Origin: a virus
Lineage: Duplodnaviria; Caudoviricetes
Virus record (IMG/VR): IMGVR_UViG_3300027112_000001
Coordinates: 1-60,547 of that record
Strand: one strand, 5' to 3'
DNA: 60,547 bases
In this document: piece after piece, positions 22,760-39,669 of the stretch
Layout of the letters: every line of letters starts with the position of its first letter
How positions within the stretch are numbered: the first letter of the stretch is position 1
Position numbers and translations under genes: made by a program
Notes under the pieces: model-generated
Database searches by the model: none
The model's input: the letters and a program-made list of their open reading frames with translations, nothing else
What the model was told of the DNA's origin: nothing

Positions 22760-23752
22760 TCACGGCTCCGTTTTACTTTGCTCACTTGGCTCATCCACGT
22801 AGTGCTTGCTCAAATCTCCACACCAGTTCTTGGGAGCGTTCGGGTCGTGCCAATCATCCTCGTCGAGCTCGCTCACACTATCGAGCTCCGCAGCTGCTTG
22901 AGCTAGTTGCTCCTTCGCCCATGCCTCGCCCGCTGCTCTGAACCTGTCGAGCTCCGCTGCCTCGGCGAGCAACTCCCGGTGCCTCTGCTTGAGCCTGCGT
23001 AGATGCCTCGGCGAGTACTTCTGGGCAGCATCGTAACCAACCGTGCCTATCACTCGTTCGTTGGCCTCGACCTCTTGGATCTCCAAATCTCTCCACTTCC
23101 ACTTATCGGCATGGGCACTCACCTCAACTAGCTGCCGATGCAGATCCTCACCGACCATCGGGAACCACTGAGTAGCGTACGGACGCTTCGTGCCTGGCCC
23201 TGAGTAGTACAGCTTCATCCGCGTATTGGTAGTGTCCACCATGCAGATCCAGGCGTAGTGCCCGCCTGCGTGCAGCTTGCGTCGGTTGTTATCGTTCCAC
23301 TTGCGGCGTAGCGGGTCCTTGCCCTTGAACTCCTGGAAGCGTAACCAGCCGCTCCAGAACGCTCGGTCCTCTGTCGCAGGGATGTGGCCCAACAAGTAGT
23401 GACCAGTCACCCAGTCGGCGTAGCCGCCTAGGTCAGAGATCATGCCCTTGCCGATCTTCGTGGCGTAGTTCTTAGCCTGCTTCTTCTCTGGCTGCTCCTC
23501 TAGCTCTGCGTTGATCGCTCGCTCGATCTCGAACAAATCCACGTACGTCTTCGCCCACTTGGCTCTTGGGTTGACGATCTTCGCCTCGATGGCTGCCAGC
23601 ACATCCCGGCTGGCTCGAATACGCACAGCCAGTCTGATAGTGTTGGTCAGCGTCACCTCCTTGCCCTTGCTCAAGAACGTGACCATCGGGTACTTGGTCC
23701 GCAGCCGCTGCATCTCCGCTAGGTAGTTCTTTTCGTCCATCACATACCCCAC
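22760..23752 (-). CDS. Hypothetical protein
   Basis: 330-aa ORF, last of the middle cluster. Confidence 0.6.
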   Translation of the reverse strand: MGYVMDEKNYLAEMQRLRTKYPMVTFLSKGKEVTLTNTIRLAVRIRASRDVLAAIEAKIVNPRAKWAKTYVDLFEIERAINAELEEQPEKKQAKNYATKIGKGMISDLGGYADWVTGHYLLGHIPATEDRAFWSGWLRFQEFKGKDPLRRKWNDNNRRKLHAGGHYAWICMVDTTNTRMKLYYSGPGTKRPYATQWFPMVGEDLHRQLVEVSAHADKWKWRDLEIQEVEANERVIGTVGYDAAQKYSPRHLRRLKQRHRELLAEAAELDRFRAAGEAWAKEQLAQAAAELDSVSELDEDDWHDPNAPKNWCGDLSKHYVDEPSEQSKTEP

Positions 23753-24660
23753 TTCTTAGGGAACACAAAGTCGTCGGGCCACCGCATCCGCCCGAGGGGA
23801 CTAGGCTTGTACGTCTGCTTAGGTCTGGTCAGAGGCTTGCGGTTGCCTCGTCCCGTCGAGTTGAGCTCCGGCTTGGTCATGCGTAGATACTTGTCGTACT
23901 CGCAGTAGAGATTCTGGACGTCCATCAGGGACAGTGGGTGTCCAGGCAAGACTGGGAACCGATACGCGTGCTGCCCCTCGACGGTCTTCTCCAACGCTTC
24001 GAGTATAGCGTCGTCGTCCCTAAAATGGCAACCACAAACTTTGGCAACGCCACGTCGGCAGCCCGGACCAGGCATGACGAAGTCGTTCTCGTCGAACTGG
24101 AAGAGCTCGGAGTAGTTCAGGTCTGTCGCAAACTGCATCGCGAAGAATGGCCCTAGCATCTTGGTCTGCCACAGCCGCGTGTACAACTGCTCGTACGTCG
24201 GCGACTCCAAGATGTACTTGGCTCGTGTCACTACGTCGTCGATCATCCGCAGGTAGTTGCGGTACTTGTCCGTAAACCCGTACGAGCTCTGCCCGCTGGC
24301 GTATCTGTACGCGGGAGCAAACAGCTTATAACCGCCCTCGTGCTGCTTGAGAACCACATCGTAGTCCTCGCACCAGCCTCGGTAGTGGAACGGCTCGTGG
24401 CCGAGGGCATCGAGCAGGAACTCCCACGTGCTGATCTTGTTGAACGTCTTGAAGAGCAGTATGCGAAACAGTTCGTCCTTGGCGAACTCCGCCCAGCCGA
24501 TCACGTGCTTGATCAGGTACTGCGATACCCTGTCCATCGCTCGATAGCAGTTGGTGAATCTGTACGTCTGCAGCACCGGGTCGTCGGTAGTGCTCGTATA
24601 GAAGAGCTCTTGCCGCTTGATGGCGAACGCCCAAAACCCGTCGTATAGCTCTACACTCAT
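23740..24660 (-). CDS. aGPT-Pplase1 / 5-hmdU DNA kinase helical-domain family protein
   Basis: 'TDDPVLQTYRFTNCYRAMDRVSQYLI..LFRILLFKTFNKISTWE', 'GPFFAMQFATDLNY', 'GPG..RG', 'QNLYCEYDKYLR'. Confidence 0.82.
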   Translation of the reverse strand: MSVELYDGFWAFAIKRQELFYTSTTDDPVLQTYRFTNCYRAMDRVSQYLIKHVIGWAEFAKDELFRILLFKTFNKISTWEFLLDALGHEPFHYRGWCEDYDVVLKQHEGGYKLFAPAYRYASGQSSYGFTDKYRNYLRMIDDVVTRAKYILESPTYEQLYTRLWQTKMLGPFFAMQFATDLNYSELFQFDENDFVMPGPGCRRGVAKVCGCHFRDDDAILEALEKTVEGQHAYRFPVLPGHPLSLMDVQNLYCEYDKYLRMTKPELNSTGRGNRKPLTRPKQTYKPSPLGRMRWPDDFVFPKKWGM

Positions 24661-25103
24661 CAGTTAAACCCTTCGTCTACGGTGGCGTGTCGGAGCACTT
24701 CTAACTCCGGGTGATTGAGCTTAGGTGGCATGGCACCTTCTTCCCTGTCCAGATGCTGCTGGATCTCGGCAGCTTTCTGATCTTCCCGCCACTTATCATG
24801 ATGCTCCATGTGGTTGCCGATAGCTTCCTCGTAGGCGTGTATTTTCTGATAGGCCAAGCCCATAGACTTCTGTAAGTCGCTCACGTCCCACCGAAGAGCC
24901 TCCGCCCGTTTAGTGTTGAGCTCCGTGTGCTCGGCTAGTTTCTCCACAGCGATGGCCAGCCGGGTCATGCTACGCTGTTGCTGAAGATCTGTCCACGCGT
25001 TACAGGCTCCCAGCGCAGCTACTATCGCTAGCCCCACTGATGTGCCTATTGACCTTACTGGAGAAGCCACCGAATGGCCTCGCTCCATATCCCATGTTGC
25101 CAT
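24660..25103 (-). CDS. Hypothetical membrane-anchored coiled-coil protein
   Basis: Hydrophobic N-terminal segment followed by heptads. Confidence 0.5.
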   Translation of the reverse strand: MATWDMERGHSVASPVRSIGTSVGLAIVAALGACNAWTDLQQQRSMTRLAIAVEKLAEHTELNTKRAEALRWDVSDLQKSMGLAYQKIHAYEEAIGNHMEHHDKWREDQKAAEIQQHLDREEGAMPPKLNHPELEVLRHATVDEGFN

Positions 25104-25120
25104 GCTGTAGCTCCTCTAGC

Positions 25121-25480
25121 CTAAGGGTGCAGTAGCCAATAGATTACTTCCTTCCACGTGCGGTGCTCTAGTACCACGCCCCCGAGGTAGTCCTCTAGCT
25201 GGAGCGTAGTGCCGTCCTCGCTGAAGCGACCGACGTACACGGCTGCCCCGCGCTCGGTCAGCCGCTTAATAACGCTCAGCTGGTCCGGCCGCAGTCGGCC
25301 ATTCCATGCCTTGAGCTCCAGGAACGTCACCTTGGATGGCGAGACGATCAGTCGGTCCGGCCACCCGCTGGGAGCGTAGCGGTTGCCCACGCAGGGGTAG
25401 ACTAGTGCTCCCGCGTACTCCAACGCTTTGCTGAACCGACGGGTGTACTCGCTCTCGGTCTTATTTTGTTTCGTCGGCAC
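25121..25480 (-). CDS. VRR-NUC family nuclease (Holliday junction resolvase-like)
   Basis: 'SGWPDRLIV...FLELKAWNGRLRPDQ' PD-(D/E)XK pattern. Confidence 0.85.
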   Translation of the reverse strand: MPTKQNKTESEYTRRFSKALEYAGALVYPCVGNRYAPSGWPDRLIVSPSKVTFLELKAWNGRLRPDQLSVIKRLTERGAAVYVGRFSEDGTTLQLEDYLGGVVLEHRTWKEVIYWLLHP

Positions 25481-25673
25481 GGACCCACCTCTCCTCCGTG
25501 ATAGATCCAGTCTTGAGCTCCTGCTTGATCCACGTCTCCTCGGCTCGGTTGGTCATGCGCACTATGATCTTGCGACGACGCGGCGTCTCGAAGACGAGCT
25601 TGATCTCGTCGTCGTGGTACTCCTTGCGGATGTCGGCTGGCAAGCTGTGTATGGGTATACTATGTGCCATGGT
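25461..25673 (-). CDS. Hypothetical protein (start refined to MAHSIP)
   Basis: GGAGGT RBS upstream. Confidence 0.45.
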   Translation of the reverse strand, partial: TMAHSIPIHSLPADIRKEYHDDEIKLVFETPRRRKIIVRMTNRAEETWIKQELKTGSITEERWVRADETK

Positions 25674-26208
25674 GCTCACTACCTCCCTTAAGTCGGTCGA
25701 ACAGAATAGTAACGGACTCGATGGTCGGGTCCCTACGGACTTTGATCTTCGTGCCACCGGCCACGAGCTCGAACGCTTGCTGCCGTGTAGCATTCAAGCA
25801 CAACCCGTTGCCCAGCGGCACCAGCACATCGCCGACGGCGACCGTCACCCCAGGTGGCAGAGTGGTTGAGGCCAGGCTAGTCACGACGTAGGCGTCGTAC
25901 GGTGGCCCCACCTCGACCTCTATCTCCGGCTCGGTGTACGTGCGGTTGATCAGGATCTTGCCCATGGCGTCTTCCTCCTTGTTAGGTGGCTTAATTTTCA
26001 TGGCGAGGCTGGACTCCAGCGCTTCCATAAAGCTAGGGGTGTACTGCGGGTTATGCTGCCAACCATCGAGCCTCACGATACGGCCAGGCAATATGATCCG
26101 CCCAGCGATGTCCTCGATAGTGCCGAGGTACACATAGTCCTCCGGCTCATCCCGTTTCCGGATATACCGTTCAGCGTGGGCAAAGTTACGAGCCAAGAGG
26201 TACCGCAT
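25660..26208 (-). CDS. Hypothetical protein
   Basis: ORF in operon; internal RBS before MGKILIN. Confidence 0.5.
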   Translation of the reverse strand: MRYLLARNFAHAERYIRKRDEPEDYVYLGTIEDIAGRIILPGRIVRLDGWQHNPQYTPSFMEALESSLAMKIKPPNKEEDAMGKILINRTYTEPEIEVEVGPPYDAYVVTSLASTTLPPGVTVAVGDVLVPLGNGLCLNATRQQAFELVAGGTKIKVRRDPTIESVTILFDRLKGGSEHHGT

Positions 26209-27100
26209 ACTCCACCACGTATTCTTCGAGCCATGGCCGCTTCTTCCGCCATCGCTCTGGGGCTGGTTCGTCTGTCGCCATGAGTATTGGTAGCTTCGTC
26301 TCCTCGGGGATCTGGAAGCACGACAGCCCTAGCTGGGCCCATAGGTGCTCGATGTTCGCTCGCCACCCAAAACAAAAGTCCTCGTACTTGATCCGGATCT
26401 CGTCGCGGTAGTAGTGGTGGGCGAACATGAGTGACGCGTTCAACTGGTTGACTGCTATCTCCGTTAGGGGTCTGCACAACTTCCAGTCCGCGTACCAGCA
26501 CGGCGGCATGTCGAACTTCCACCAGCCTGTGTGCCTGTCTCCCGTCGGTGTCTCGACGTCCACCCATCGGGCCTCAAACGCTCCGTCCTTCTCCCAGCCG
26601 TCGATCAATCCGTTGACTATGGCTCGCGAGTCCCGCTCACACACCACGTACTTGATCTTCGCGTTCGGGTACAGCTGCTCCATGATCCCGCGTCGATAGA
26701 CATCTTGCGGGGTCTTCAGCAATAACGTGTCACGTGGCGAGCGATACGGGTGCCACACGAGTTCTATCTCCGCTGCTGACAAGTAGGGCGGCTCCTCTAT
26801 ATGTTCACGCTGTAGCCACCGGCGGTTCTGCCACGCGGTGATGTCGCATGGCCGCAGTAGCTCGTTGGCAATGCAACTCCGCACGAGCTCCGGGTTGTTG
26901 AGCTCGTGGAACTCATCCGAGTCGTGCCAAGGGTAGCCATTCTGAGCCAGCTTCAGGTAGGGCTCGTGCTCGCCCACCAACTGGCACACGTCCGGGTGCA
27001 GCCCGAGGGCATGCTTGATGATGGTGCTCCCGCTGCGGCTGGGCCCGACCATGCATATGACGGTCTTGGGCTCGTACTTCAGGCTAAGATCCAGCTTCAT
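26186..27100 (-). CDS. Sulfotransferase-family (P-loop) protein
   Basis: 5'-PSB-like 'ICMVGPSRSGSTIIKHALGLHPDV', 'LLLKTP', 3'-PB-like 'YVVCERDSRAIVNGL', 'IKYEDF'. Confidence 0.75.
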   Translation of the reverse strand: MKLDLSLKYEPKTVICMVGPSRSGSTIIKHALGLHPDVCQLVGEHEPYLKLAQNGYPWHDSDEFHELNNPELVRSCIANELLRPCDITAWQNRRWLQREHIEEPPYLSAAEIELVWHPYRSPRDTLLLKTPQDVYRRGIMEQLYPNAKIKYVVCERDSRAIVNGLIDGWEKDGAFEARWVDVETPTGDRHTGWWKFDMPPCWYADWKLCRPLTEIAVNQLNASLMFAHHYYRDEIRIKYEDFCFGWRANIEHLWAQLGLSCFQIPEETKLPILMATDEPAPERWRKKRPWLEEYVVEYAVPLGS

Positions 27101-27854
27101 ACGCGTAATCCTTATCTACGACGCCTACTTCCATATCCCCGACCAACGACGGGTGCCAGTACCACGAGCCGACCAGCTTTCCAAACAGAGGCTTGTCAGC
27201 GGTGTAAGTCTTCACGTGCCCTCGGCGGCTGTGCAGTGGCATCTTGAAGCCTGGCTCGTTGATGTTCACGTCCCGAGGGTGCTTCTTCGTGCCGAGCTTC
27301 AGCTTCAGGACATGGTACTTGAACTCCCAGTCCTTCTGCCGACGAGAGCTAGGGCGAGAGAGTTTGGGTAGCTGCAACGTCTCCGTAGTACCATAGTGCA
27401 CGTTTTGGCATGCGAAGAACTTCAGCAAGTTGAGGATGCTCCACCGCACTACCTCGGCGTCGTGCTCGTCAAACGACATAGTTTTCGGGTAGATCATGAA
27501 TCCCAGAACACCATCTCTAAGCTCGGCGTCGTACTCCGCGTACATGAAACCCCATGGCTCGCTTAAGATCGAGAACGCTATCCCCTTTAGCCCGCTGCGT
27601 GTTCGCTGGATGGTGTACCCCATAGGCATCTTCAGACTGGTGACCTCGATGTAGAGGCAATCGTAGGGCATCGGCAGACCAGTTATCTCCGACATGTGGC
27701 CTTCTTCCGGGAGGATGGGGTAAGGCACGGAGAACTTGTGGAGATCCCGAACGCTTCTCACGCCAGCTTTGTACCCTTCGGGAAAGACAAACGGGAGCTT
27801 GAAGGACCGCAGCGCATTCATGTAGTTCGGAAATAGCTCCTTGGCTCGGCTCAT
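27084..27854 (-). CDS. Conserved phage protein with HxRRGH motif
   Basis: C-terminal 'PLHSRRGHVKTY...WYWHPSLVG'; start refined to MSRAKE. Confidence 0.6.
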   Translation of the reverse strand: MSRAKELFPNYMNALRSFKLPFVFPEGYKAGVRSVRDLHKFSVPYPILPEEGHMSEITGLPMPYDCLYIEVTSLKMPMGYTIQRTRSGLKGIAFSILSEPWGFMYAEYDAELRDGVLGFMIYPKTMSFDEHDAEVVRWSILNLLKFFACQNVHYGTTETLQLPKLSRPSSRRQKDWEFKYHVLKLKLGTKKHPRDVNINEPGFKMPLHSRRGHVKTYTADKPLFGKLVGSWYWHPSLVGDMEVGVVDKDYAYEAGS

Positions 27855-28465
27855 CTTCCCTCCTTCACGATAGCGTAGAAGTCCTCGGGTGCAGTCCGAT
27901 GGTCCAAGACCGTGACGCGTCGCCCTGCCTTCCGGAAGTTCTCTTGGTTGTTCAGGTTCTGCCGATGCAGGTCGCGGCAGTTCTTGTCGTTGAACGGAGC
28001 CAGCTTCTGCCCTGGCTTCAGCTTCTTCGCTCGTCGAGCGAGTATCCTCTCGATGCACACCTCGACTGGCGTGTCCAGGAACAGGAAGTGGACCACCTCG
28101 CGTCCGTAGAGGTTAGCTAGCTGCTGGGCCTGGTTGTTCCATCGGCCGAACGTGCCGCTGACCATGAAGCCTTCGTACAGCACGTGCTTCTGCGGCACCC
28201 AGTCCATGGCCAGGCGGTTGATCAGGGACTCCAGCTGGTCCGTGTTGCCTCGGTGGGCGATGAACCAATCGCACCCGCCACACTGCATGTCGTAGATGCC
28301 GACCGTCCGCAAGTTCAGGTCCGGGACCAGTAATCCCACGGTCTGCTGCCACGCGTCGCCCTCCCGCGTCGGGTCGAGCAGGTCCTGCTGCTCGTGCTTC
28401 TCCAGCATCATGTGGACGCAGTGACTCTTGCCGCTGCCGTTCGTGCCTCGTAGGTTATAGATCAT
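27851..28465 (-). CDS. P-loop nucleotide kinase of the DNA-hypermodification type
   Basis: 'YNLRGTNGSGKS', 'VGIYDMQCGGCD', 'VLYEG', 'FLDTPVEVCIERILARR'. Confidence 0.78.
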   Translation of the reverse strand: MIYNLRGTNGSGKSHCVHMMLEKHEQQDLLDPTREGDAWQQTVGLLVPDLNLRTVGIYDMQCGGCDWFIAHRGNTDQLESLINRLAMDWVPQKHVLYEGFMVSGTFGRWNNQAQQLANLYGREVVHFLFLDTPVEVCIERILARRAKKLKPGQKLAPFNDKNCRDLHRQNLNNQENFRKAGRRVTVLDHRTAPEDFYAIVKEGR

Positions 28466-28668
28466 GCTTGCTCCACTAACTTACCGTATGCCCAGACTAC
28501 CTTGCCTAGCTCGTTCACTACACGCGTCTTCTTCACGCGAGCTCCGTCGCCCGAGTTTTGAATGTCGGTCGCAGCCTTGATGGCTGCGTCTAAGTTTTCG
28601 TACAACGGTCCGTGCCCGACCCAGTCGAACTCGCGATTCCAGACTAACTCTACTTGGTACCTCACCAC
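28462..28668 (-). CDS. Hypothetical protein
   Basis: Short coupled ORF. Confidence 0.45.
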   Translation of the reverse strand: MVRYQVELVWNREFDWVGHGPLYENLDAAIKAATDIQNSGDGARVKKTRVVNELGKVVWAYGKLVEQA

Positions 28669-29387
28669 TGCACCATCCCCGTAGCGCAGGCCACGCCTCC
28701 GCCATGCTCAAGCAACTGGTCTATCGGCACCGGGATCACGTTGCAGTGCGGCTCCAGCAGCTTGATGGTCTGTTTGTTCCGATCCCCGATCACAATGTTG
28801 TCGCGGTACTGCACCCAGTTGGAGTGCTTCGTCTTGTACTCGTCATGTGGCAACGGGATGCAGCCCGTTAGCCACGCGGGTGGCTCGTCGCCGCACTCGG
28901 CCAGGGCCTTCTCGTCGCAGAAGATGTTCCACCCCTGCACCACGTTGGCCAGCCCGAGCAGATGCTGGTCGTGCCACGCGGGGAAACCCGTAATGGTGAC
29001 CGTCATGTTCCTAGCTTTGTAGGTCAGCCAGTGCTCTAGGTGTCTCGCCGCCACCAAGTTGGTCCGCGTGCCGAGCCCAATAATCACATGCGAGCTCGTG
29101 GTCCAGAGCAGGTCCGCTCCTTCCAGGCAGCCCTCGGGTAGCGTGTGCTCCCAGTGTCGCCGCGTGATGTCAAAGAAGCGATGGATCTCTGAGGACCGAG
29201 AGGACTTGCCCATCATCTGTGGTCTGACTAAGCCCAGCGGCGTGAAGGCGAACACGTCCCGGAGGAACACCGCGTCAGTCTCTTCGACTGGATAGCGGTA
29301 GGTCGCGATGCCTAGGTCCGCGTAGACTTGAGCTAGGTTGTCCAAGTCCTTCTGCATGGCTTCGTGCTCTGCTACGTACACTATCAT
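28662..29387 (-). CDS. Amidinotransferase/arginine deiminase/DDAH (pentein) superfamily enzyme
   Basis: 'DAVFLRD', 'LEGAD', 'GTRTN', 'QHL', C-terminal 'HGGGVACAT' catalytic Cys. Confidence 0.8.
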   Translation of the reverse strand: MIVYVAEHEAMQKDLDNLAQVYADLGIATYRYPVEETDAVFLRDVFAFTPLGLVRPQMMGKSSRSSEIHRFFDITRRHWEHTLPEGCLEGADLLWTTSSHVIIGLGTRTNLVAARHLEHWLTYKARNMTVTITGFPAWHDQHLLGLANVVQGWNIFCDEKALAECGDEPPAWLTGCIPLPHDEYKTKHSNWVQYRDNIVIGDRNKQTIKLLEPHCNVIPVPIDQLLEHGGGVACATGMVQW

Positions 29388-29584
29388 GGTTTAACCTTGT
29401 GCCTCACTAAGACTTCGATGCCCAGGTCCGCCATCGCTTCCTTACGGACCGCGTTCTCTTCGGAGCGTATCTCCGTGCCCTTCCGTCCCATCTGTGCGTT
29501 GACCCTGCCGGTGCTCGGGTACTCGCCGCGTCGCCAGACTTCGACGACCGCCTCGATGATCCGGCGTCTATGCTGTGGTGTCAT
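29384..29584 (-). CDS. Small hypothetical protein (start refined to MTPQHRR)
   Basis: Overlapping stop/start at both ends; GGAG RBS. Confidence 0.45.
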   Translation of the reverse strand: MTPQHRRRIIEAVVEVWRRGEYPSTGRVNAQMGRKGTEIRSEENAVRKEAMADLGIEVLVRHKVKP

Positions 29585-30450
29585 CTCCCCTCCCAAGGCG
29601 CTAGTACGCGTCCCGTTGCTTGGTACACTTTCAAACGGTCCTTGTCGATGCCATGCCATCCCCCGAGCTCGCCCAGCGTGTTCTCTGGGAATACTCGGTG
29701 TCGAATGACCCATAGCTCCGATAGCTTGGAAGCGCATACCGTCTCGCCTGCCAGCATGTCGTCTACTTTGTGAATCCGTCCCTGTTGCCGGTCGATGTTC
29801 CGCCCAGCGTAGAACGTGCCCTTGTTCATGCCAGCCCAGTCGCAGAGCAGGCTCTCGCATTGGGAGACGGAGCACGCCAGGCCTTCGCGGTTCAGCGTTT
29901 GGTGGACCTCGTGGGCGGACTGCTCGGTCGGTGTCAGGCCGAGGAACTCCAGCCCCTGCCTGGGGCCACTGGAGCTCGCTATCTCGAACCGATCCGGCTC
30001 GATGTGGTTAAGGTCGCCCAGGTGCATGAGTAGCTCCGCCGACGTGTACGTGGCCCAGCGGCCATTGCCCCAGACCGACTCGACGAGGTTCAGTAGCTGG
30101 CACCAGTTCTGAGCACCGAGCAGCCAACCGTGCAGCGGTCGCCTAGCGTGGACCTCGTCGAGGTGCTGGTAGATCCTGCCACCGTAGAGATTGCGTCGCT
30201 GCAACTCGATCGGGTACTGCATCAGGCCGCCACCACCACCGTCGGCGAACTGCTTAATGACGAGCCGATCGACAAACGCTAGGTGCGCCGAGGCCTCGTT
30301 GTAGTACGCCATGTAGAGGAAGCCCATGTACACGGACTCCTCGCCACTCATGCCGTTGCAGTACTCCTTCAGGAACGGGATGTGGGCATCGTAGTCGCCC
30401 GTCTCCAGTTGCAGCTTGACGAAGTACAGGAATTTGTCTTGGTTGATCAT
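29581..30450 (-). CDS. Amino acid:DNA transferase (aGPT-Pplase2 family)
   Basis: 'LETGDYD', 'YMAYYN', 'QRR', HhH-like 'WGNGRWATYTSAELL', 'SSGPRQGL', 'ESLLCDW', 'FYAGRNID'. Confidence 0.78.
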   Translation of the reverse strand: MINQDKFLYFVKLQLETGDYDAHIPFLKEYCNGMSGEESVYMGFLYMAYYNEASAHLAFVDRLVIKQFADGGGGGLMQYPIELQRRNLYGGRIYQHLDEVHARRPLHGWLLGAQNWCQLLNLVESVWGNGRWATYTSAELLMHLGDLNHIEPDRFEIASSSGPRQGLEFLGLTPTEQSAHEVHQTLNREGLACSVSQCESLLCDWAGMNKGTFYAGRNIDRQQGRIHKVDDMLAGETVCASKLSELWVIRHRVFPENTLGELGGWHGIDKDRLKVYQATGRVLAPWEGR

Positions 30451-30554
30451 AGTTCACCCGAGCCACGCTCCGTGGAGCATGCTTCGGGTGCCCGTCCGCG
30501 TTGGCCCTCGGACGGGACCCTTTCCTACCAGCACGTGCCGGCAGGGAGTGCTTC

Positions 30555-30797
30555 CTACTTTGCTTGCCGGCGACGACGCCGAGCAGCTTTGACCTTCCCC
30601 TTCCCGGAAGCTACGGCTCGCCCGAGGTCCTCATAAGCCTTGGCGATGTTCGCCTTGGCTCGCTCGATGCCATCCCCGCTGCGTGCCTTCTTGGCTCGGG
30701 TCTTCTTTGCCTTCGGCTCCGGCGTGTTCAGCTTGCGACGAGCAGGCTTCTTACGGCGGACTTTTCTCTTCGGTGCTGTAGTAGCAGCTTTCGCCAT
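30555..30797 (-). CDS. Highly basic histone-like small protein
   Basis: MAKAATTAPKRKVRRKK...; GGAGGT RBS. Confidence 0.55.
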   Translation of the reverse strand: MAKAATTAPKRKVRRKKPARRKLNTPEPKAKKTRAKKARSGDGIERAKANIAKAYEDLGRAVASGKGKVKAARRRRRQAK

Positions 30798-30799
30798 TG

Positions 30800-31147
30800 C
30801 TACCTCCGTTTCTTCGAGTGCTTTTGCTTCTGTCTCGACGCGCACTCGTTCAACTCGCCGAGCAGTTCTTCCGTCTGGAACAAGAATTCGTGTATGGTGC
30901 AGAAGTAGCCGGACTCCCGATCCTCTTGCGTGAGTGGCTCCTCCTCCGATCGCCCCGTCACCCAGCACAGCGTAGCGTAGATCGACTGTAGGCTCACGGT
31001 CATGCTAGTCAGCTTGATCGCCAGCATCGAGTTGACTTCCAGGTACCCATCGCTCAAGCTGTCACGAAGCACGTGGAATCGATCCTGCAATACGTTCAGC
31101 TTCGCGATCATGGCTTCTACTTCTTGGATGCTCTTGTGCTCTCTCAT
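30800..31147 (-). CDS. Hypothetical protein
   Basis: AGGAG RBS plus GACACACGAC before the ATG. Confidence 0.55.
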   Translation of the reverse strand: MREHKSIQEVEAMIAKLNVLQDRFHVLRDSLSDGYLEVNSMLAIKLTSMTVSLQSIYATLCWVTGRSEEEPLTQEDRESGYFCTIHEFLFQTEELLGELNECASRQKQKHSKKRR

Positions 31148-36424: not shown

Positions 36425-38256
36425 GTCTCGTCTCCTGCTTTCTTCGCCGCGAGCCAGTTCTTTGTCGAGACACCTCGACTGCACCGCACCGGGACTCGCA
36501 TCGGTACGCTGCTGTGGTTCAGGATATCGCAGACCGATAGTGCATACTCATCGGCGACGTCGATCGGCACTTCGCTCACGGTCTCGTCGTGCACCAGGGC
36601 GAGGATGTGAGCACCCCACCGCTCTCGCTGCTCGTCGAGCGCGTTGGCTCGGTCCTTCATGTGGTCCGCTGCATGCGACTGGCACACGCGGTTGAACGCG
36701 ACCCGAGCGAACTCGATCGGCATGTGGCATCGCCGCCCATACGCGTTCCTGACATAGCCGCGTTCGCGTGCCGCTGCCTCCGCTGCCCGCGTGTGTGGCT
36801 TGAGCTCGGGCAGCCTGCGGTGAAACTCACCGTGGACCTTGACTGCGATCTCGTAAGCCTTGGTCTTGTCGCCACCCGTAGCCGCCACGATCGACGGGTC
36901 CACTCGCAGCGACGCGATAGTCTTCCGCTTGCCCATGCCGTAGCCCATGGCGAGGTTCAGGATCTTGGCTGCCTTGCGGTCGATCGAGATGCCCAGCGAG
37001 GCCCCGACCTCGTCCGCCATCATTTGGTGGAAGTCCGCGTCCGGGTTGTCGAGGAACGTTTGGACGATCTTCGGGCTATTGATGTAGTGGATGATGTCGC
37101 GGTACTCGATGTTCTTGTAGTCGTGACAAGCGATGGCCCAACCGTCTCTCGGTATGATGAGCTCGCGGGCCTCGTTGTTCATCTGCTGGTTGTTCGGCTG
37201 CGAGCATGACATGCGACCGGACCGCACACACTGGTTGTTGTCGGAGTGCAGCACGCCCTCGACGTTGAGCTCCAGCCACGACTCCCAGAACAGGCTACTC
37301 ATGGTTGTCTCATGGCGGTGGGCGTCGATCAGTCGCAGGATCTCCATCGGAGCCCACGGTATCAGCTTGTACTGCTTCAGCACGTTCTTGTCGAAGCTAG
37401 GCCCCTTCGACTGCACACCCTTCTTCTCGGTGTAGATCGGTGGCAGCCCAAATCTGTTAATGAGCAGATCGTGCATATCCACCGGCGACTTCGGGTTGAC
37501 CTTATAGCCGACGAGGACTTCCAGCTGCTCCTCGTATTGCATCATTCGATAATAAGACCGGAGCAGAGCCTTCTTCGTCCCCTCTACGTCAATCAGCATG
37601 CCGCGTCGCTCGGCTCGGATCAGCGTCTTCGTGAGCCTCTTTTCCGTAGCATACACCGTCGAGCATTCGGCCGGCAGCAGCGACTCCATCTTGGTATGCA
37701 AGACTCGGTTCGCTCGCACCTGGTTACCAGCGTAGTCCGCGAGCACATGCGTCGGGATGTCGCCATAGTCCTTCGTGTTCGTTAGCCAAGCCTGGAGACT
37801 GTTGTAGTAATACGACAGATCGATGCCTGCGAACTCCTTGGCCATGACGTCCAGGCCGTAGCCGCCCTTGTAGGTGCGGTCGCTGTCTACCAGCTTGCAG
37901 AGCGTGAGCGTGTCGCGGTACTCGCCAGCGAAGTCAAACCCGTAGTTATTCCACAGCACATGGGCGTCGTACTTGACGTTCTGGTTGACCCACGCATCGC
38001 TGTTGGCTAGTAGCTCCCTGAGGATTTCAGGCAGCCTACCATCCTCGCGGCTCACGCAGTAGACTTGCGGGCAGTCGTCAAACGTGAACGCCGCGAGGCA
38101 TGGAGTGCAGTTAGCGGTACGCCATGGGTTGAGAGACGTGAGCTTCGGGTCGTTGGAGCTCGTCTCTAGGTCGAGGTACAGCTTCGAGATCCGCTTGGGT
38201 ATCGGCACGAAGTCGAGCTCGGACAGCAACACCACGTTATTGCTTAGCTTCAGCAT
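36421..38256 (-). CDS. polA: Family A DNA polymerase (3'-5' exonuclease + polymerase)
   Basis: Exo YLDLET, NQNVKYD; 'SGRMSCSQPNNQQ'; motif A DYKNIEYR, motif B RKAAKILNLAMGYG, motif C VHDE. Confidence 0.92.
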   Translation of the reverse strand: MLKLSNNVVLLSELDFVPIPKRISKLYLDLETSSNDPKLTSLNPWRTANCTPCLAAFTFDDCPQVYCVSREDGRLPEILRELLANSDAWVNQNVKYDAHVLWNNYGFDFAGEYRDTLTLCKLVDSDRTYKGGYGLDVMAKEFAGIDLSYYYNSLQAWLTNTKDYGDIPTHVLADYAGNQVRANRVLHTKMESLLPAECSTVYATEKRLTKTLIRAERRGMLIDVEGTKKALLRSYYRMMQYEEQLEVLVGYKVNPKSPVDMHDLLINRFGLPPIYTEKKGVQSKGPSFDKNVLKQYKLIPWAPMEILRLIDAHRHETTMSSLFWESWLELNVEGVLHSDNNQCVRSGRMSCSQPNNQQMNNEARELIIPRDGWAIACHDYKNIEYRDIIHYINSPKIVQTFLDNPDADFHQMMADEVGASLGISIDRKAAKILNLAMGYGMGKRKTIASLRVDPSIVAATGGDKTKAYEIAVKVHGEFHRRLPELKPHTRAAEAAARERGYVRNAYGRRCHMPIEFARVAFNRVCQSHAADHMKDRANALDEQRERWGAHILALVHDETVSEVPIDVADEYALSVCDILNHSSVPMRVPVRCSRGVSTKNWLAAKKAGDET

Positions 38257-38729
38257 ATGCCCTTCGCGTTACTGGGTTGGCTCGGAGCCATGTTAGGGTC
38301 TCGCAGCCCGAGCTCCGCGTCGTCGGGGATGTCGAGCCACACTATGTTCATCCCGCAATTGACAAGGACCTTTACTCCCTCGGCTCCTGGCTCTGACTGG
38401 TCCAGGATGTAGACCGTGCGGATCCTGCCGCGTTTCCAGTTGACCATCGCCGTGGCACACGGCACGCATGGTGCCCTCGTCACGATCATCAGGCACGAGG
38501 TCATCGACCGCTCGACGCCGTTCAGCAAGGTGTTGATCTCGCTGTGAGCACAACCGCAGTTGTCTTTTACTCCGGAGCAGCCTGCCCGCGTGCCGTTCAC
38601 TCCCCAGCCGACCACTTGGTGGTTCGACTCTTGCAGGATGATGGCCGCCACGCCGCGTCGCTTGCACGTGGAGTGCTTAGCTAGCCTTCGGGTCAGTCTC
38701 GCGAAGTCCTCAATTAGTTCCCTGCTCAT
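38250..38729 (-). CDS. dCMP deaminase-like protein
   Basis: 'STCKRRGVAAII', HSE, 'APCVPC' zinc motifs. Confidence 0.85.
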   Translation of the reverse strand: MSRELIEDFARLTRRLAKHSTCKRRGVAAIILQESNHQVVGWGVNGTRAGCSGVKDNCGCAHSEINTLLNGVERSMTSCLMIVTRAPCVPCATAMVNWKRGRIRTVYILDQSEPGAEGVKVLVNCGMNIVWLDIPDDAELGLRDPNMAPSQPSNAKGIC

Positions 38730-39669
38730 ATTGCTCCTTCGTTTTGGTTAGGTGCCGCAGCATCGCGTGCCGCAGCCCAGGTGCTCGAATCTCTTCCCAC
38801 ACTACATCGGGGTACCACTTCCGGCAGCAGCATATCACCGCGTCGCCCAGCACGCTGGAGATGATCTTGCCTTGTGGCTTGAACCCCAGCATGCGGTACG
38901 AGCGCTCTGTCGCCAGCGCTGAGTCTAGCTCTTCCTCGCTCCAGTAGCCTGCGCCTGGGTGGTACGGCTCGAACGTGGTACGAGGCACTGGCAGTGCCTC
39001 CTTCGCCTTCTCCACATCCCGCTCGTACAGATGCAACGAGCCAGCGAAGTGGTGGTAGTCGCCAGCCGTCACACCGAGCCTCGCCGCCACGTACCTCTGT
39101 ATAACCGTGTTGACATAGCAATCGTAGAGGAAGCCCTTCCACAGATCGTTCGACCGCATCGAGCAGACCATGTGCAGCCGCTCGCCGCGCAGGAGGAACT
39201 GCCACGTGAGGGTGCAAGGGATATCCCGATTGCTGGCAACCAGGTCGTCTGGTCGCCACAGCGACACCACGCACTTCTTCGTGGTGCCCCGCTCGCTGAG
39301 CTTGAACACTGCCTCGTCCAGCAGGTCTGGAGCATAGGGTGCCCCAGCTGGCACGCGAAGGTTATTGGCCAGTCGCCCACCGTATGCCCCGTAAGCTCTG
39401 CCGCCCTCACAGAACTGCTTGTACTGCGGAGCGTACGCACAGATCATACTGGCATCGTGGGTCCTCGACAAGTACCACAGGAGCTCCGCCGACGCATAGA
39501 TCGGCGAGAGCTTCCGTCTCTCGTTGAGACAGAACTGCTCCATCGAGCCATCGAGGACCACGTGGGCCCCGATGATCTCGCGGATGCTGTCCTGCTGCGC
39601 GTCAGTCTTTGGTGACAGCAGCGCGTTGTCCAACAGCCTTCCCCACACTTGGTCGATATGAAAAGACAC
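38710..39669 (-). CDS. Thymidylate-synthase-family pyrimidine (hydroxy)methylase
   Basis: 'AELLWYL', 'GAYGGR', 'RDIPCT', 'MRSNDLWKGFLYD', 'GSLHLYE'. Confidence 0.88.
   Translation of the reverse strand: MSFHIDQVWGRLLDNALLSPKTDAQQDSIREIIGAHVVLDGSMEQFCLNERRKLSPIYASAELLWYLSRTHDASMICAYAPQYKQFCEGGRAYGAYGGRLANNLRVPAGAPYAPDLLDEAVFKLSERGTTKKCVVSLWRPDDLVASNRDIPCTLTWQFLLRGERLHMVCSMRSNDLWKGFLYDCYVNTVIQRYVAARLGVTAGDYHHFAGSLHLYERDVEKAKEALPVPRTTFEPYHPGAGYWSEEELDSALATERSYRMLGFKPQGKIISSVLGDAVICCCRKWYPDVVWEEIRAPGLRHAMLRHLTKTKEQYEQGTN

What the first reader, a model, noticed from the sequence alone, without database searches (positions are those of the whole stretch)
27851..30450. DNA hypermodification cluster with an amidinotransferase-fold enzyme: candidate new modified base
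Seen: coupled genes for an amino acid:DNA transferase (29581-30450), a pentein enzyme with Asp/His/Cys residues (28662-29387) and a P-loop kinase (27851-28465). An aGPT-Pplase1/5-HMUDK-type gene lies at 23740-24660. Established: in phages such as M6, ViI and phiW-14, 5-hmdU in DNA is phosphorylated and then substituted by an amino acid or amine, followed by tailoring by decarboxylases, radical SAM enzymes and others. No PLP decarboxylase is visible here. Inference: the pentein either amidinates the installed amine (guanidino-thymidine) or trims an installed arginine to citrulline or ornithine. I know of no described pathway with this enzyme.
Basis: partly seen in the sequence, partly recalled or inferred. 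Interest (0 to 1): 0.88.

Follow-up and report, generated by a model that had tools for sequence, protein, structure and literature searches.

The report
Phage thymine-modification operon with sulfamate-type enzymes
An uncultivated phage carries a thymine-modifying gene set that includes an enzyme pair otherwise tied to bacterial sulfamate-antibiotic synthesis, which points to a DNA base chemistry not yet described.

Summary
The window is a complete 60.5-kb phage genome. On its minus strand lies a translationally coupled operon: amino acid:DNA transferase (AADT), 66-aa ORF, pentein, 68-aa ORF, P-loop kinase, 256-aa ORF, sulfotransferase-fold protein, then HMUDK_hel. A thymidylate-synthase-like gene and a dCMP deaminase lie elsewhere.

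Of 13 viral records with that gene, 11 have a pentein beside it. The other 2 have an arginase-family enzyme instead. Sulfotransferase-pentein fusion proteins exist.

The pentein is closest to DDAH hydrolases and far from amidinotransferases. Both proteins are homologues of the NucO-like and NucN-like genes of bacterial sulfamylation clusters; nucN and nucO knockouts abolish sulfamylation (PMC10946740).

Best reading: a 5-hmdU hypermodification pathway whose new unit hydrolyses an arginine-type guanidine and transfers sulfuryl. The product is probably a sulfamate-type or ornithine/citrulline-type thymine. Amidination is disfavoured.

No cultured phage has either gene, and no held paper links these enzymes to DNA modification. 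The chemistry is untested.

The parts
29581..30450 (-). Amino acid:DNA transferase (AADT, formerly aGPT-Pplase2), 289 aa
   Evidence: PF18724 at 27.9 bits, cut-off 26.2. Invariant ESxxCD motif with E199 and C203, aligned to solved AADTs 25qc_A and 8z2m_A. 17 actinophage records match at up to 30.5% identity, some annotated aGPT-Pplase2.
29384..29584 (-). Small ORF, 66 aa, unknown. Overlaps the AADT stop and the pentein start by 4 nt each.
   Evidence: ATG at 29584 preceded by GGGAGGGGAG. No counterpart in L004, L007 or L008, where AADT abuts the pentein directly.
28662..29387 (-). Compact DDAH/NucN-like pentein (guanidino-group hydrolase fold), 241 aa
   Evidence: PF02274 at 33 bits. Model pLDDT 93. 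Foldseek top hits are PaDDAH 1h70 (TMq 0.82) and ArgZ 6juy (TMq 0.82). Profile against PaDDAH gives E 2.7e-16. Invariant R43, D44, R64, E89, D92, R108, H142, C234.
28462..28668 (-). Small ORF, 68 aa, unknown
   Evidence: ORF list and start codons. No Pfam hit.
27851..28465 (-). P-loop kinase, probable 5-hmdU DNA kinase, 204 aa
   Evidence: Walker A GTNGSGKS. PF18748 at 23.8 bits, below the cut-off of 27. Orthologues in the same operon position in L004, L005, L007 and L037. The L037 orthologue scores 49.1 bits for PF18748.
27084..27854 (-). 256-aa protein of unknown function, coupled to the kinase stop (ATGA overlap)
   Evidence: ATG at 27854 after GAAGGAGGGAAG. phrog_20769, unknown function. 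Atlas lead to AcrVA2-like clusters, where 15-32% of members carry the family.
26186..27100 (-). NucO-type sulfotransferase-fold protein, 304 aa; the pentein's constant partner
   Evidence: PF13469 at 37.1 bits, cut-off 27. PSRSGST loop. Model pLDDT 89. All top Foldseek hits are sulfotransferases, with the highest TM for CurM ST 4gbm and OLS ST 4gox. 31% identity over 170 aa (E 2e-15) to the NucO-like gene of a Streptomyces cluster, and no significant similarity to its NucK-like gene.
25660..26208 (-). Unknown ORF, up to 182 aa
   Evidence: Weak N-terminal similarity in L004 and L005 (29% over 69 aa). No Pfam hit.
25121..25480 (-). VRR-NUC-like nuclease, 119 aa
   Evidence: PF08774 at 22.1 bits, below the cut-off of 23.8. 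Conserved in L004, L005 and L007.
24660..25103 (-). Unknown ORF, 147 aa
   Evidence: ORF list. No Pfam hit.
23740..24660 (-). HMUDK_hel protein (formerly aGPT-Pplase clade 1 type), 306 aa
   Evidence: PF18723 at 210.8 bits. 122 phage records match. Syntenic in L004, L005 and L007.
22760..23752 (-). Unknown protein of about 326-330 aa, conserved next to HMUDK_hel
   Evidence: 31% identity over 318 aa in L004 and L005 at the same position. No Pfam or PHROG hit.
38710..39669 (-). Divergent thymidylate-synthase homologue, candidate dUMP hydroxymethylase (source of 5-hmdU)
   Evidence: PF00303 at 70.7 bits. All ThyA equivalog models score far below their cut-offs, e.g. 61 against 174.55. phrog_160. 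Hydroxymethylase specificity is inferred.
38250..38729 (-). dCMP deaminase, supplies dUMP
   Evidence: PF00383 at 50.4 bits.

Best explanation
The region is the core of a post-replicative thymidine hypermodification operon of the 5-HMUDK/AADT kind.

Established for the family elsewhere (PMC8989533) and inferred here: a TS-like hydroxymethylase, fed by dCMP deaminase, puts 5-hmdU into phage DNA. The P-loop kinase phosphorylates it. The AADT replaces the phosphate with a nucleophile.

New here: the pentein is not a lone tailoring enzyme. It is the hydrolase half of a conserved two-enzyme unit with the sulfotransferase-fold protein at 26186-27100. The unit is homologous to the NucO-like and NucN-like genes of bacterial sulfamylation clusters. 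I propose that it joins PAPS-dependent sulfuryl transfer to hydrolytic C-N cleavage of an arginine-type guanidine. That gives the thymine adduct its distinctive group.

Preferred route (about 0.35):
1. The sulfotransferase N-sulfonates the guanidino group of free L-arginine.
2. The DDAH-like pentein releases the substituted amine, sulfamate or a close equivalent, much as DDAH releases methylamine.
3. The AADT installs it, giving 5-(N-sulfoaminomethyl)-dU or a related S-N base.

Second route (about 0.3): see the first rival.

Every chemical step of the new unit is inferred. Only the gene content, the folds, the residues and the linkage are shown.
For: Operon:
- Pfam and motif evidence for AADT, kinase, HMUDK_hel, the TS-like gene and the deaminase.
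- Successive genes overlap by 4 to 23 nt.
- The same gene order occurs in L004, L005 and L007.

The pair:
- 11 of 13 viral records with the sulfotransferase-fold gene (the window plus 10 of 12) have a pentein directly beside it. The other 2 have an arginase-family gene there. No record has both, and none has neither.
- The arginase-like proteins keep DAHPD/DSHGD and DGDVLDP/DTD motifs.
- Fusion proteins P0170 and P0236 carry Sulfotransfer_3 followed by ADI. The N-terminal half of P0170 matches the window protein at E 5e-15.
- G007, a complete genome, has the compact cassette Tet_JBP, P-loop kinase, sulfotransferase, pentein, AADT.

Hydrolase class:
- Foldseek and the profile search put DDAH first and amidinotransferases last.
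- The residues aligned to PaDDAH D60, R85, R132, D66, E114, H162 and C249 are conserved (D38, R64, R108, D44, E89, H142, C234). PaDDAH E65 is an invariant Arg (R43) in this family, and the same position is Arg in at least 90% of the long NucN-like penteins.

Sulfamylation link:
- Of the 80 best cellular loci, 38 have the NucO-like gene, and in 28 it is adjacent to the pentein.
- The Streptomyces locus L109 holds two sulfatases, a pentein, a B12-radical SAM enzyme, Sulfotransfer_3, rubrerythrin, a GyrB-methyltransferase and a NucO-like gene. This is the gene set named in PMC4257720 and PMC10946740.
- Per PMC10946740, nucN and nucO knockouts abolish sulfamylation, and NucO's nearest folds are 4GBM and 4GOX. 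Those two have the highest TM scores for the phage protein.
Against: - There is no biochemistry for any of these proteins.
- The kinase is below its Pfam cut-off.
- The phage has counterparts of only 2 genes of the Streptomyces cassette. tblastn found no sulfatase, B12-radical SAM, NucK-like, rubrerythrin or GyrB-methyltransferase counterpart in the window. Nine nuc genes are needed for sulfamylation.
- 42 of the 80 cellular NucN-like penteins have no NucO-like gene nearby.
- The tree has no outgroup. It leaves the compact phage clade on a long branch, not placed inside the NucO-linked clade.
- Arginase replacing the pentein is explained most simply by arginine to ornithine, not by sulfamate release.
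- N-sulfoarginine and sulfamate as an AADT nucleophile have no precedent that I found.
- Foldseek TM scores of the sulfotransferase model are modest, 0.36-0.49.
- Both proteins are acidic, with family median pI about 6. This gives no sign of DNA binding, but the AADT in this phage is acidic too.
Confidence: 0.6

Rival explanations
1. On-DNA trimming, the first reader's option (b) extended. The AADT installs L-arginine through its alpha-amino group. The pentein, or in other phages the arginase, then converts the tethered guanidine to an ornithine-type amine or a citrulline-type ureide. The sulfotransferase N-sulfonates or otherwise decorates that product.
For: - Arginase-family displacement in G002 and G003 fits arginine to ornithine. 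That is also the net reaction of the ArgZ/AgrE dihydrolases, which rank among the top fold matches.
- AADT and pentein genes abut or overlap in L004, L007 and L008.
- The compact pentein starts about 20 residues later than PaDDAH. It lacks the roughly 70-residue N-terminal extension of the long family. This could open the site to a tethered substrate. That the missing part is DDAH's lid is recalled, not tested.
Against: - The Asp and the two Arg that align with DDAH's alpha-amino and alpha-carboxylate ligands are conserved. That fits a free amino acid better; the roles of these residues are recalled.
- The same pair occurs where Pfam finds no AADT, in 7 of 12 viral records, though those records are 12-70% complete.
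- The same pair occurs in bacterial clusters, where no DNA-tethered arginine is expected.
Confidence: 0.3
2. Precursor supply only. The pentein or arginase makes free ornithine, citrulline or, from agmatine, a putrescine precursor for the AADT, as a phage-encoded boost of the nucleophile pool. The sulfotransferase has a separate role.
For: - Conserved ligands for a free amino acid.
- Pentein and arginase-family enzymes are classic alternatives for arginine or agmatine breakdown (established knowledge, recalled).
- Phage SH-Ab 15599 reprograms host synthesis of its diamine nucleophile (abstract of PMC13458397).
Against: This does not explain why the hydrolase is adjacent to the sulfotransferase-fold gene in 13 of 13 viral records and fused to it in P0170 and P0236. 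It also does not explain why the same pair sits in sulfamylation clusters.
Confidence: 0.12
3. Amidinotransferase, the first reader's option (a). The pentein moves an amidino group from arginine onto an amine already installed on thymine, giving a guanidino-thymidine.
For: The Cys-His-acid triad is shared with amidinotransferases. AGAT, HsvA, SxtG and StrB1 appear among the fold matches. AcmN and NucN are annotated as amidinotransferases in the literature.
Against: - Profile E-values are 0.016-0.04 for amidinotransferases, against 2.7e-16 for DDAH.
- TM by target is about 0.52-0.57 for amidinotransferases, against 0.75-0.78 for PaDDAH.
- The protein is 241 aa, against 340-420 aa for those enzymes.
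- It is replaced by an arginase-family hydrolase in 2 records, and that enzyme cannot transfer amidino groups.
Confidence: 0.05
4. Not a DNA modification. The pair makes a small sulfated or sulfamate-type metabolite, for host takeover or as an antimetabolite, and merely sits among nucleotide-metabolism genes.
For: The homologous bacterial genes act in small-molecule (nucleoside sulfamate) synthesis. In 7 of 12 viral records no AADT was found.
Against: - In the window the pair lies inside a translationally coupled run between the AADT and HMUDK_hel.
- In complete genome G007 it sits between the kinase and the AADT of a five-gene cassette.
- All AADT-less records carry it beside TS-like genes.
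Confidence: 0.08

Closest known systems
Thymidine hypermodification pathways of phages M6, PaMx11, ViI, PhiW-14 and SH-Ab 15599 (5-HMUDK plus AADT; PMC8989533, PMC13458397)
   Same: dUMP-hydroxymethylase-type gene, P-loop kinase, HMUDK_hel paralogue, and an AADT with the catalytic Glu and Cys.
   Different: The described tailoring enzymes are a PLP decarboxylase, a radical SAM isomerase, a flavin lyase and an acetyltransferase. Here the tailoring or supply unit is a sulfotransferase-fold protein plus a DDAH-like pentein. Neither class appears in the main texts of those papers. Their supplements were not seen.
NucO/NucN (AcmO/AcmN) of the nucleocidin and ascamycin sulfamylation gene sets (PMC10946740, PMC4257720, PMC9113183)
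   Same: A weakly scoring Sulfotransfer_3 protein with a CurM/OLS-like fold sits beside an 'amidinotransferase'-annotated pentein. The phage proteins match the corresponding genes of a Streptomyces locus with the same gene set, at E 2e-15 and E 3e-8.
   Different: The phage proteins are shorter (304 against about 400-444 aa; 241 against about 319-343 aa). The phage lacks counterparts of the other cassette genes. I compared with an unnamed-function Streptomyces locus (L109), not with NucN and NucO themselves, whose sequences I could not fetch. The biochemical roles of NucN and NucO are unknown.
Dimethylarginine dimethylaminohydrolase (P. aeruginosa DDAH, PDB 1h70/3rhy) and the arginine dihydrolases ArgZ/AgrE
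   Same: Best fold and sequence matches among solved structures. The Cys-His-Glu triad and the residues aligned with the substrate ligands are conserved.
   Different: Only 14-18% identity. PaDDAH Glu65 is an invariant Arg here. About 20 N-terminal residues are absent. The substrate is unknown.
Activating sulfotransferases CurM ST and olefin synthase ST (PDB 4gbm, 4gox)
   Same: Highest TM scores for the phage sulfotransferase-fold model. The PAPS-loop-like motif PSRSGST and a conserved Arg156 are present.
   Different: TM is only 0.43-0.49 and identity 15%. Whether sulfate is a leaving group or part of the final product here is unknown.
Five-gene thymidine hypermodification system of actinophages (Rhodococcus phage Tonitrus; Gordonia phage MakoManhole)
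   Same: Nearest cultured-phage AADT homologues, at up to 30.5% identity. They sit next to a kinase and an oxygenase or oxidoreductase.
   Different: No pentein and no sulfotransferase-fold gene occurs in any of the 50,697 phage records searched.

Membership tests
5-HMUDK/AADT thymidine hypermodification pathway | A source of 5-hmdU (dUMP hydroxymethylase or a T-dioxygenase) | tested here: inconclusive
   A TS-family protein is present (PF00303, 70.7 bits). It scores far below every ThyA equivalog cut-off. A dCMP deaminase lies beside it. Hydroxymethylase versus methylase specificity cannot be read from these scores.
5-HMUDK/AADT thymidine hypermodification pathway | P-loop 5-hmdU DNA kinase | tested here: inconclusive
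   Walker A motif present. PF18748 scores 23.8 bits, below the cut-off of 27. The syntenic orthologue in L037 scores 49.1 bits.
5-HMUDK/AADT thymidine hypermodification pathway | AADT with the catalytic Cys and the nearby Glu | tested here: met
   PF18724 is above its cut-off. E199 and C203 are invariant in 9 of 9 aligned sequences. They align with the E...C of the solved transferases. The mutational requirement is stated in PMC8989533.
5-HMUDK/AADT thymidine hypermodification pathway | A modified thymidine in virion DNA | not testable with these tools
   The genome is uncultivated, and no nucleoside data exist.
Pentein superfamily, DDAH-like hydrolase branch | Pentein propeller fold with a Cys-His-acid triad | tested here: met
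   Model pLDDT 93. Foldseek probability 1.00 to DDAH, TMq 0.77-0.82. C234, H142 and E89 are invariant and align with PaDDAH C249, H162 and E114.
Pentein superfamily, DDAH-like hydrolase branch | Ligands for a free alpha-amino acid (PaDDAH D60, R85, R132; roles recalled) | tested here: met
   D38 is conserved in at least 90% of members. R64 and R108 are invariant at the aligned positions.
Pentein superfamily, DDAH-like hydrolase branch | Hydrolysis of N-omega-methylated arginine | not testable with these tools
   Needs an enzyme assay. The Glu65-to-Arg change and the missing N-terminus suggest a different substrate.
Amidinotransferases (AGAT, StrB1, HsvA, SxtG) | Closer in sequence and fold to amidinotransferases than to the hydrolases | tested here: not met
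   Profile E-values are 0.016-0.04, against 2.7e-16 for DDAH. TM by target is 0.52-0.57, against 0.75-0.78.
NucO/NucN-type sulfamylation pair | A NucO-type (not NucK-type) sulfotransferase-fold protein | tested here: met
   Against the NucO-like gene of L109: E 2e-15 over 170 aa, plus E 3e-6 over the N-terminal 67 aa. Against the Sulfotransfer_3 (NucK-like) gene of L109: E 0.61. The nearest folds, 4gbm and 4gox, are those reported for NucO.
NucO/NucN-type sulfamylation pair | A NucN-type pentein adjacent to or fused with the NucO-type protein | tested here: met
   Profile A1 hits the 290-340 aa family at up to 144 bits, against 63 bits for DDAH. Adjacent in 11 of 13 viral records and in 28 of 80 cellular loci. 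Fusions P0170 and P0236 exist.
NucO/NucN-type sulfamylation pair | The remaining sulfamylation genes (NucK-type sulfotransferase, sulfatases, B12-radical SAM, rubrerythrin, GyrB-methyltransferase) | tested here: not met
   tblastn of the L109, L017 and L023 cassette proteins against the window gave hits only for the NucO-like gene and the pentein, at E <= 0.01. The genome has a single Sulfotransfer_3 match.
PAPS-dependent sulfotransferases | 5'-phosphosulfate-binding loop and 3'-phosphate-binding Arg | tested here: inconclusive
   The PSRSGST loop (S21, R22, G24 invariant) and R156 are invariant in 36 of 36 sequences. Assigning them to PAPS binding rests on recalled motifs. No cofactor docking was done.

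The most novel reading that the evidence does not exclude
The virion DNA of this phage and its relatives carries a thymine bearing a sulfur-nitrogen group. Candidates are 5-(N-sulfoaminomethyl)uracil, or 5-(sulfamoyloxymethyl)uracil by analogy with the 5'-O-sulfamoyl group of nucleocidin. That would be the first sulfate- or sulfamate-type base modification of DNA. The phage NucO/NucN-like pair would then be the minimal S-N bond-forming system: arginine serves as the nitrogen carrier, and a DDAH-like enzyme releases the N-sulfonated amine. This would also explain the unsolved origin of the sulfamate nitrogen in nucleocidin and ascamycin.
Probability: 0.3. Interest if true: 0.92.

Novelty: new variant of a known kind. 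Interest (0 to 1): 0.82.

Why it matters
Thymidine hypermodifications shield phage DNA from restriction enzymes and other nucleases. Each new one has brought new enzymology and new tools.

This operon adds two enzyme classes that the main texts of the pathway papers held here do not mention. One is a NucO-type sulfotransferase-fold protein. The other is a DDAH-like guanidine hydrolase, which can be swapped for an arginase-family enzyme.

The unit recurs in at least 13 uncultivated viral genomes of two different architectures. It occurs in none of the 50,697 phage records searched, which may be why it has gone unnoticed.

The homology to the nucN and nucO genes, which are genetically required for sulfamylation, makes two open questions testable with a small and soluble enzyme set:
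- What base do these phages make?
- How is the S-N bond of natural sulfamates formed?

Tried and rejected
- **Phage collection searches.** DNA-level search of the phage collection with 22000-32000 gave no match. tblastn of the pentein, the sulfotransferase-fold protein and a long viral pentein against the 50,697 phage records gave no match.
- **Early locus searches.** The single-protein scan of viral contigs with the pentein confirmed none of 12 pattern hits. The first scan of genome contigs, with the compact family, confirmed none of 80 pattern hits.
- **Single pentein against PDB sequences.** No hit at E <= 1. The family profile was needed.
- **Kinase homology.** phmmer and a four-sequence HMM of the window-type kinase found only the L037 orthologue among the ORFs of L036-L046. 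The P-loop genes upstream of the pair in the other viral modules are therefore not shown to be orthologous.
- **Radical SAM and methyltransferase at 47679-49330.** I considered them counterparts of the sulfamylation B12-radical SAM and methyltransferase. tblastn at E <= 1e-5 against the 80 cellular loci gave no hit, and the reverse search gave none either. Rejected as part of the unit.
- **Isoelectric points.** Computed as a hint of DNA binding, and uninformative.
- **Tree of 122 penteins.** It separates the groups but, without an outgroup and with long branches, does not place the compact phage clade. I draw no ancestry from it.
- **DDAH review PMC6273216.** Read in passages to confirm residue roles. 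It did not state them, so those roles are marked as recalled.
- **Host.** The major capsid protein is 34-36% identical to those of Curvibacter, Ralstonia and Pseudomonas phages. The AADT and HMUDK_hel are nearest to actinophage proteins. No host is assigned.

Full report
**What the window is.**
The window is one complete virus record of 60,547 bases with direct terminal repeats and an estimated completeness of 100%. GC content is 52-61% and no tRNA was found. Nearly all long ORFs lie on the minus strand. Other genes are:
- a major head protein, tape-measure-like proteins and a 1580-aa protein;
- a family A DNA polymerase;
- a primase-helicase and an SNF2 helicase;
- an ATP-dependent ligase.

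No DNA-level relative exists among the 50,697 phage records searched.

**Checking the observation.**
- The 289-aa product of 29581-30450 matches Pfam ADDT (27.9 bits, cut-off 26.2). An alignment of nine homologues has an invariant ESxxCD motif with E199 and C203. A profile of that alignment finds two solved amino acid:DNA transferases, 25qc_A (E 4e-6) and PaMx11 glycinyltransferase 8z2m_A (E 0.017). The Glu and Cys are aligned in both. PMC8989533 (passages) reports that mutating this Cys or the nearby Glu abolishes activity in M6 gp51 and ViI gp247.
- The 241-aa product of 28662-29387 matches Pfam ADI (33 bits, cut-off 22.8).
- The 204-aa product of 27851-28465 has a Walker A motif. It scores 23.8 bits for HMUDK_HMUD1, below the cut-off of 27. 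Its syntenic orthologue in L037 scores 49.1 bits.
- 23740-24660 matches HMUDK_hel at 210.8 bits.

Upstream in the genome lie a divergent thymidylate-synthase homologue (38710-39669; PF00303, 70.7 bits) and a dCMP deaminase (38250-38729). The TS homologue scores far below all ThyA equivalog cut-offs. Three PLP families were searched across the genome and none was found.

With the best-supported start codons, the genes from the AADT down to the sulfotransferase-fold gene overlap their neighbours by 4 to 17 nt. The next ORF overlaps by 23 nt. The order is AADT, 66-aa ORF, pentein, 68-aa ORF, kinase, 256-aa ORF, sulfotransferase-fold protein, 182-aa ORF.

**The pentein.**
A word-indexed search found 21 proteins, the query included. 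Eighteen of them are compact (223-263 aa) at 34-71% identity. Reading all 1.84 billion cluster representatives with the family profile gave 24 compact representatives at 212 bits or more. There is then a gap down to 144 bits, where a much larger family of about 290-340 aa begins. In all, 523 proteins score E <= 1e-10.

In the 18-sequence alignment R43, D44, R64, E89, D92, R108, H142 and C234 are invariant, and D38 is nearly so. The AlphaFold model is confident (pLDDT 93.1, pTM 0.89).

Fold matches among solved structures:
- P. aeruginosa DDAH: 1h70 with TMq 0.82 and TMt 0.78; 3rhy with E 2.7e-14.
- Human DDAH-1.
- The arginine dihydrolases ArgZ and AgrE: TMq 0.75-0.82.
- Amidinotransferases AGAT, HsvA, SxtG and StrB1 follow, with TM by target of only 0.52-0.57.

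Profile E-values against PDB sequences:
- PaDDAH: 2.7e-16
- human DDAH-1: 1.6e-7
- arginine deiminases: about 1e-6
- AgrE and ArgZ: 2e-5 to 2e-3
- HsvA, AGAT and StrB1: 0.016-0.04

In the printed alignment the phage residues D38, D44, R64, E89, R108, H142 and C234 stand opposite PaDDAH D60, D66, R85, E114, R132, H162 and C249. PaDDAH E65 is replaced by the invariant R43. The phage protein begins about 20 residues later than DDAH.

That D60, R85 and R132 bind the alpha-amino and alpha-carboxylate groups of the substrate, and that the missing N-terminus holds DDAH's lid, is recalled knowledge. The one review I could read did not state it.

**Linkage of the close family.**
Scans of viral and metagenome contigs with the family alignment gave 1 and 31 loci. 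The viral locus L003 lies on the same contig as L035. Eight loci hold a close relative (37-46% identity). Six of them (L003, L004, L005, L007, L008, L009) have an AADT gene abutting the pentein. The other two (L006, L010) are truncated on that side. L004, L005 and L007 also repeat the kinase, the sulfotransferase-fold gene, the VRR-NUC-like gene and HMUDK_hel in the window's order. The first genome-contig scan, with the compact family, found nothing.

The 304-aa product of 26186-27100 matches Sulfotransfer_3 (37.1 bits, cut-off 27). It carries a PSRSGST loop. It has 36 close relatives with many invariant positions. Its model (pLDDT 89) matches only sulfotransferases at the top of the PDB search. 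The highest TM scores are for the activating sulfotransferases CurM ST (4gbm, 0.46/0.49) and olefin synthase ST (4gox, 0.43/0.47).

A scan of viral contigs with this family gave 12 records.
- A Pfam ADI search of those whole records found a pentein in 10 of 12. In every case it lies directly beside the sulfotransferase-fold gene.
- The AADT family was found in 5 of 12.
- HMUDK_HMUD1 and HMUDK_hel were each found in 2 of 12.
- The records without these are 12-70% complete, except G007 (100%), so absence is weak evidence.

The two records without a pentein (G002 and G003) have an arginase-family gene directly after the AADT (PF00491, 49.6 and 25.6 bits). An arginase search of all 13 records, the window included, found it in exactly those two. 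Both proteins keep DxHxD and DxD motifs. That these are the manganese ligands of ureohydrolases is recalled.

So 13 of 13 records pair the sulfotransferase-fold gene with a guanidino-group hydrolase fold, of one kind or the other.

Three long hits of the profile search carry both domains:
- P0170 (788 aa) carries Sulfotransfer_3 followed by ADI.
- P0236 (766 aa) does the same.
- P0244 (513 aa) has the sulfotransferase part only at E 4e-4.

The N-terminal half of P0170 matches the window protein at E 5e-15.

**Two architectures in viruses.**
In the window type, and in G001, G007 and G008, the pair sits with an AADT. G007, a complete 79-kb genome, has the compact run Tet_JBP oxygenase, P-loop kinase (Ploopntkinase3), sulfotransferase-fold protein, pentein, AADT.

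In seven other records the order is different: a guanylate-kinase-like gene, an unknown gene, a P-loop protein, a 405-420-aa sulfotransferase-fold protein, a 300-326-aa pentein, a divergent TS-like gene, an APH-like kinase and a second TS-like gene. Pfam finds no AADT in these records.

In both architectures the pair is embedded in 5-hydroxymethylpyrimidine genes.

**Link to bacterial sulfamylation genes.**
In marine metagenome loci L017 and L023 the pair sits with a B12-binding radical SAM enzyme, a GyrB-methyltransferase fusion and a canonical Sulfotransfer_3 gene.
- Table 1 of the ascamycin cluster paper (PMC4257720, passages) lists acmH (B12/radical SAM), acmK (sulfotransferase), acmL (methyltransferase), acmN (amidinotransferase, 319 aa), acmO (hypothetical, 444 aa) and acmP (DNA topoisomerase II).
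- PMC10946740 (abstract and passages) reports that deleting nucI, G, J, K, L, N, O, Q or P abolishes sulfamylation of nucleocidin.
- The same paper reports that NucO has only a weak Sulfotransfer_3 match, with 4GBM and 4GOX as its nearest folds. [quoted passage not shown] - The review PMC9113183 (passages) says the S-N bond-forming mechanism is unknown.

I then built an alignment of 11 long penteins. These were 11 of the 40 in A4, chosen for Ala/Gly/Arg/Pro-rich composition. A scan of species-representative genomes with it gave 335 confirmed loci, of which the best 80 were kept. Among those 80:
- 38 hold the NucO-like gene. It is adjacent to the pentein in 28 and nearby in 10.
- 26 hold a canonical Sulfotransfer_3 gene.
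- 27 hold the GyrB-methyltransferase.
- 18 hold the B12-radical SAM gene.
- 42 have the pentein alone. These are mostly Anaerolineae, Chloroflexota and Bathyarchaeota.

The Streptomyces locus L109 carries two sulfatases, the pentein, a B12-radical SAM enzyme, Sulfotransfer_3, rubrerythrin, a GyrB-methyltransferase, the NucO-like gene and an MFS transporter. This is the published gene set.

Comparisons with L109:
- The window's sulfotransferase-fold protein matches the NucO-like gene at 31% over 170 aa (E 2e-15), plus 28% over the N-terminal 67 aa (E 3e-6).
- It does not match the canonical Sulfotransfer_3 gene (E 0.61).
- The window's pentein matches the L109 pentein at 31% over 111 aa (E 3e-8).
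- The reverse tblastn of the cassette proteins against the window hits only these two genes.

The window's own methyltransferase and radical SAM genes (47679-49330) are not detectably related to the cassette's. The genome has no APS kinase and no PAPS reductase family gene, so PAPS would have to come from the host.

A quick tree of 122 penteins recovers several groups:
- the compact phage family (18 rows, support 100);
- the long viral family (9 rows, support 99);
- a mostly NucO-linked cellular clade (42 rows, 35 with NucO, support 96);
- a mostly solo clade (46 rows).

The tree has no outgroup and has long branches. It does not place the compact clade, and I draw no ancestry from it.

**How it most likely works.**
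Shown:
- the gene content, the coupling and the synteny;
- the folds and the conserved residues;
- the obligate pairing of the sulfotransferase-fold gene with a guanidine-hydrolase fold;
- the homology to NucO-like and NucN-like genes.

Established elsewhere: 5-hmdU is phosphorylated by 5-HMUDK, and the phosphate is displaced by a nucleophile through the AADT (PMC8989533).

Inferred: the new pair joins PAPS-dependent sulfuryl transfer to hydrolysis of an arginine-type guanidine.

I prefer an off-DNA route (about 0.35). The sulfotransferase N-sulfonates the guanidine of free arginine. The DDAH-like pentein expels the substituted amine (sulfamate or an equivalent), as DDAH expels methylamine. 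The AADT then installs it. One common small product would explain three things:
- The same pair serves AADT phages, AADT-less phages and bacterial sulfamate pathways.
- The ligands for a free amino acid are kept.
- The Glu-to-Arg change beside the guanidine site (R43, shared with the long family) could bind an anionic substituent.

The on-DNA route (about 0.3) installs arginine and then trims it to an ornithine or citrulline type, followed by sulfonation. It is favoured by the arginase displacement, by the AADT-pentein coupling and by the shortened N-terminus.

Amidination is unlikely (about 0.05).

**Known or new.**
The pathway type is known. The tailoring or supply unit is not.
- Neither main pathway paper mentions these enzyme classes in its main text.
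- Five literature searches returned nothing that connects them to phage DNA modification.
- Iyer et al. 2013 and all supplements could not be read.
- No record in the phage collection encodes either protein.

I file the finding as a new variant of a known kind. There is a substantial chance that the product is a categorically new class of DNA base.

Noticed in passing
window 16668-21410 (-): A 1580-aa protein whose C-terminal 250 residues or so match PHROG families named ADP-ribosyltransferase (Alt-like; phrog_3895 at 5.3e-33, phrog_802 at 8.3e-20). It may be an injected or internal virion protein.
   Followed up: no
window 27084-27854 (-): A 256-aa protein inside the operon. The protein atlas places it near clusters in which 15-32% of members carry AcrVA2-like (PF26125). 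This is a lead only. Pfam found nothing and the PHROG family is unnamed.
   Followed up: partly
window 47679-49330 (-): An adjacent SAM methyltransferase (Methyltransf_23, 72 bits) and radical SAM protein (31.2 bits, cut-off 29.5). Their function is unknown. They are not detectably related to the methyltransferase and B12-radical SAM genes of the sulfamylation cassette.
   Followed up: partly
L041 8462-12850 (viral record G007, complete): A self-contained five-gene cassette: Tet_JBP oxygenase, P-loop kinase (Ploopntkinase3), sulfotransferase-fold protein, pentein, AADT. Here 5-hmdU would come from oxidation of T in DNA rather than from a TS-like enzyme.
   Followed up: partly
L036 2064-2744 and L037 8314-9099: Arginase-family proteins (226 and 261 aa) with DxHxD and DxD motifs stand where the pentein stands in the other records. 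They lie directly after the AADT.
   Followed up: yes
L038-L040 and L043-L046 (seven viral records): A second module type without a Pfam AADT: guanylate-kinase-like gene, unknown gene, P-loop protein, long sulfotransferase-fold protein, long pentein, divergent TS-like gene, APH-like kinase, TS-like gene, and then a sigma-70-like factor. It may work at the nucleotide level.
   Followed up: partly
L047-L126 (80 cellular loci): The NucO-like/pentein pair, with GyrB-methyltransferase, Sulfotransfer_3 and B12-radical SAM genes, occurs far beyond Streptomyces. Examples are Sorangium, Azospirillum, Nonomuraea, Umezawaea and many MAGs labelled Myxococcota, Gemmatimonadota, Proteobacteria and others. 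A separate clade of solo penteins is common in Anaerolineae and Bathyarchaeota.
   Followed up: partly
L004 1775-2272 and 2972-3352 (also L005, L007): Relatives of the operon carry a weak UDG-superfamily match (19.6 bits, below the cut-off of 24.3) and a DUF6717 protein between the pentein and the sulfotransferase-fold gene. Neither has a counterpart in the window.
   Followed up: no
window 27851-28465 (-): The kinase's best PHROG is phrog_800, labelled 'terminase small subunit' (7.6e-18). For a Walker A kinase in this operon the label looks wrong.
   Followed up: no
P0124 (815 aa): A long protein with an N-terminal pentein domain, followed by a weak phosphonate-binding-protein match (25.6 bits, below the cut-off of 27). 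This is a different fusion partner from the sulfotransferase.
   Followed up: no
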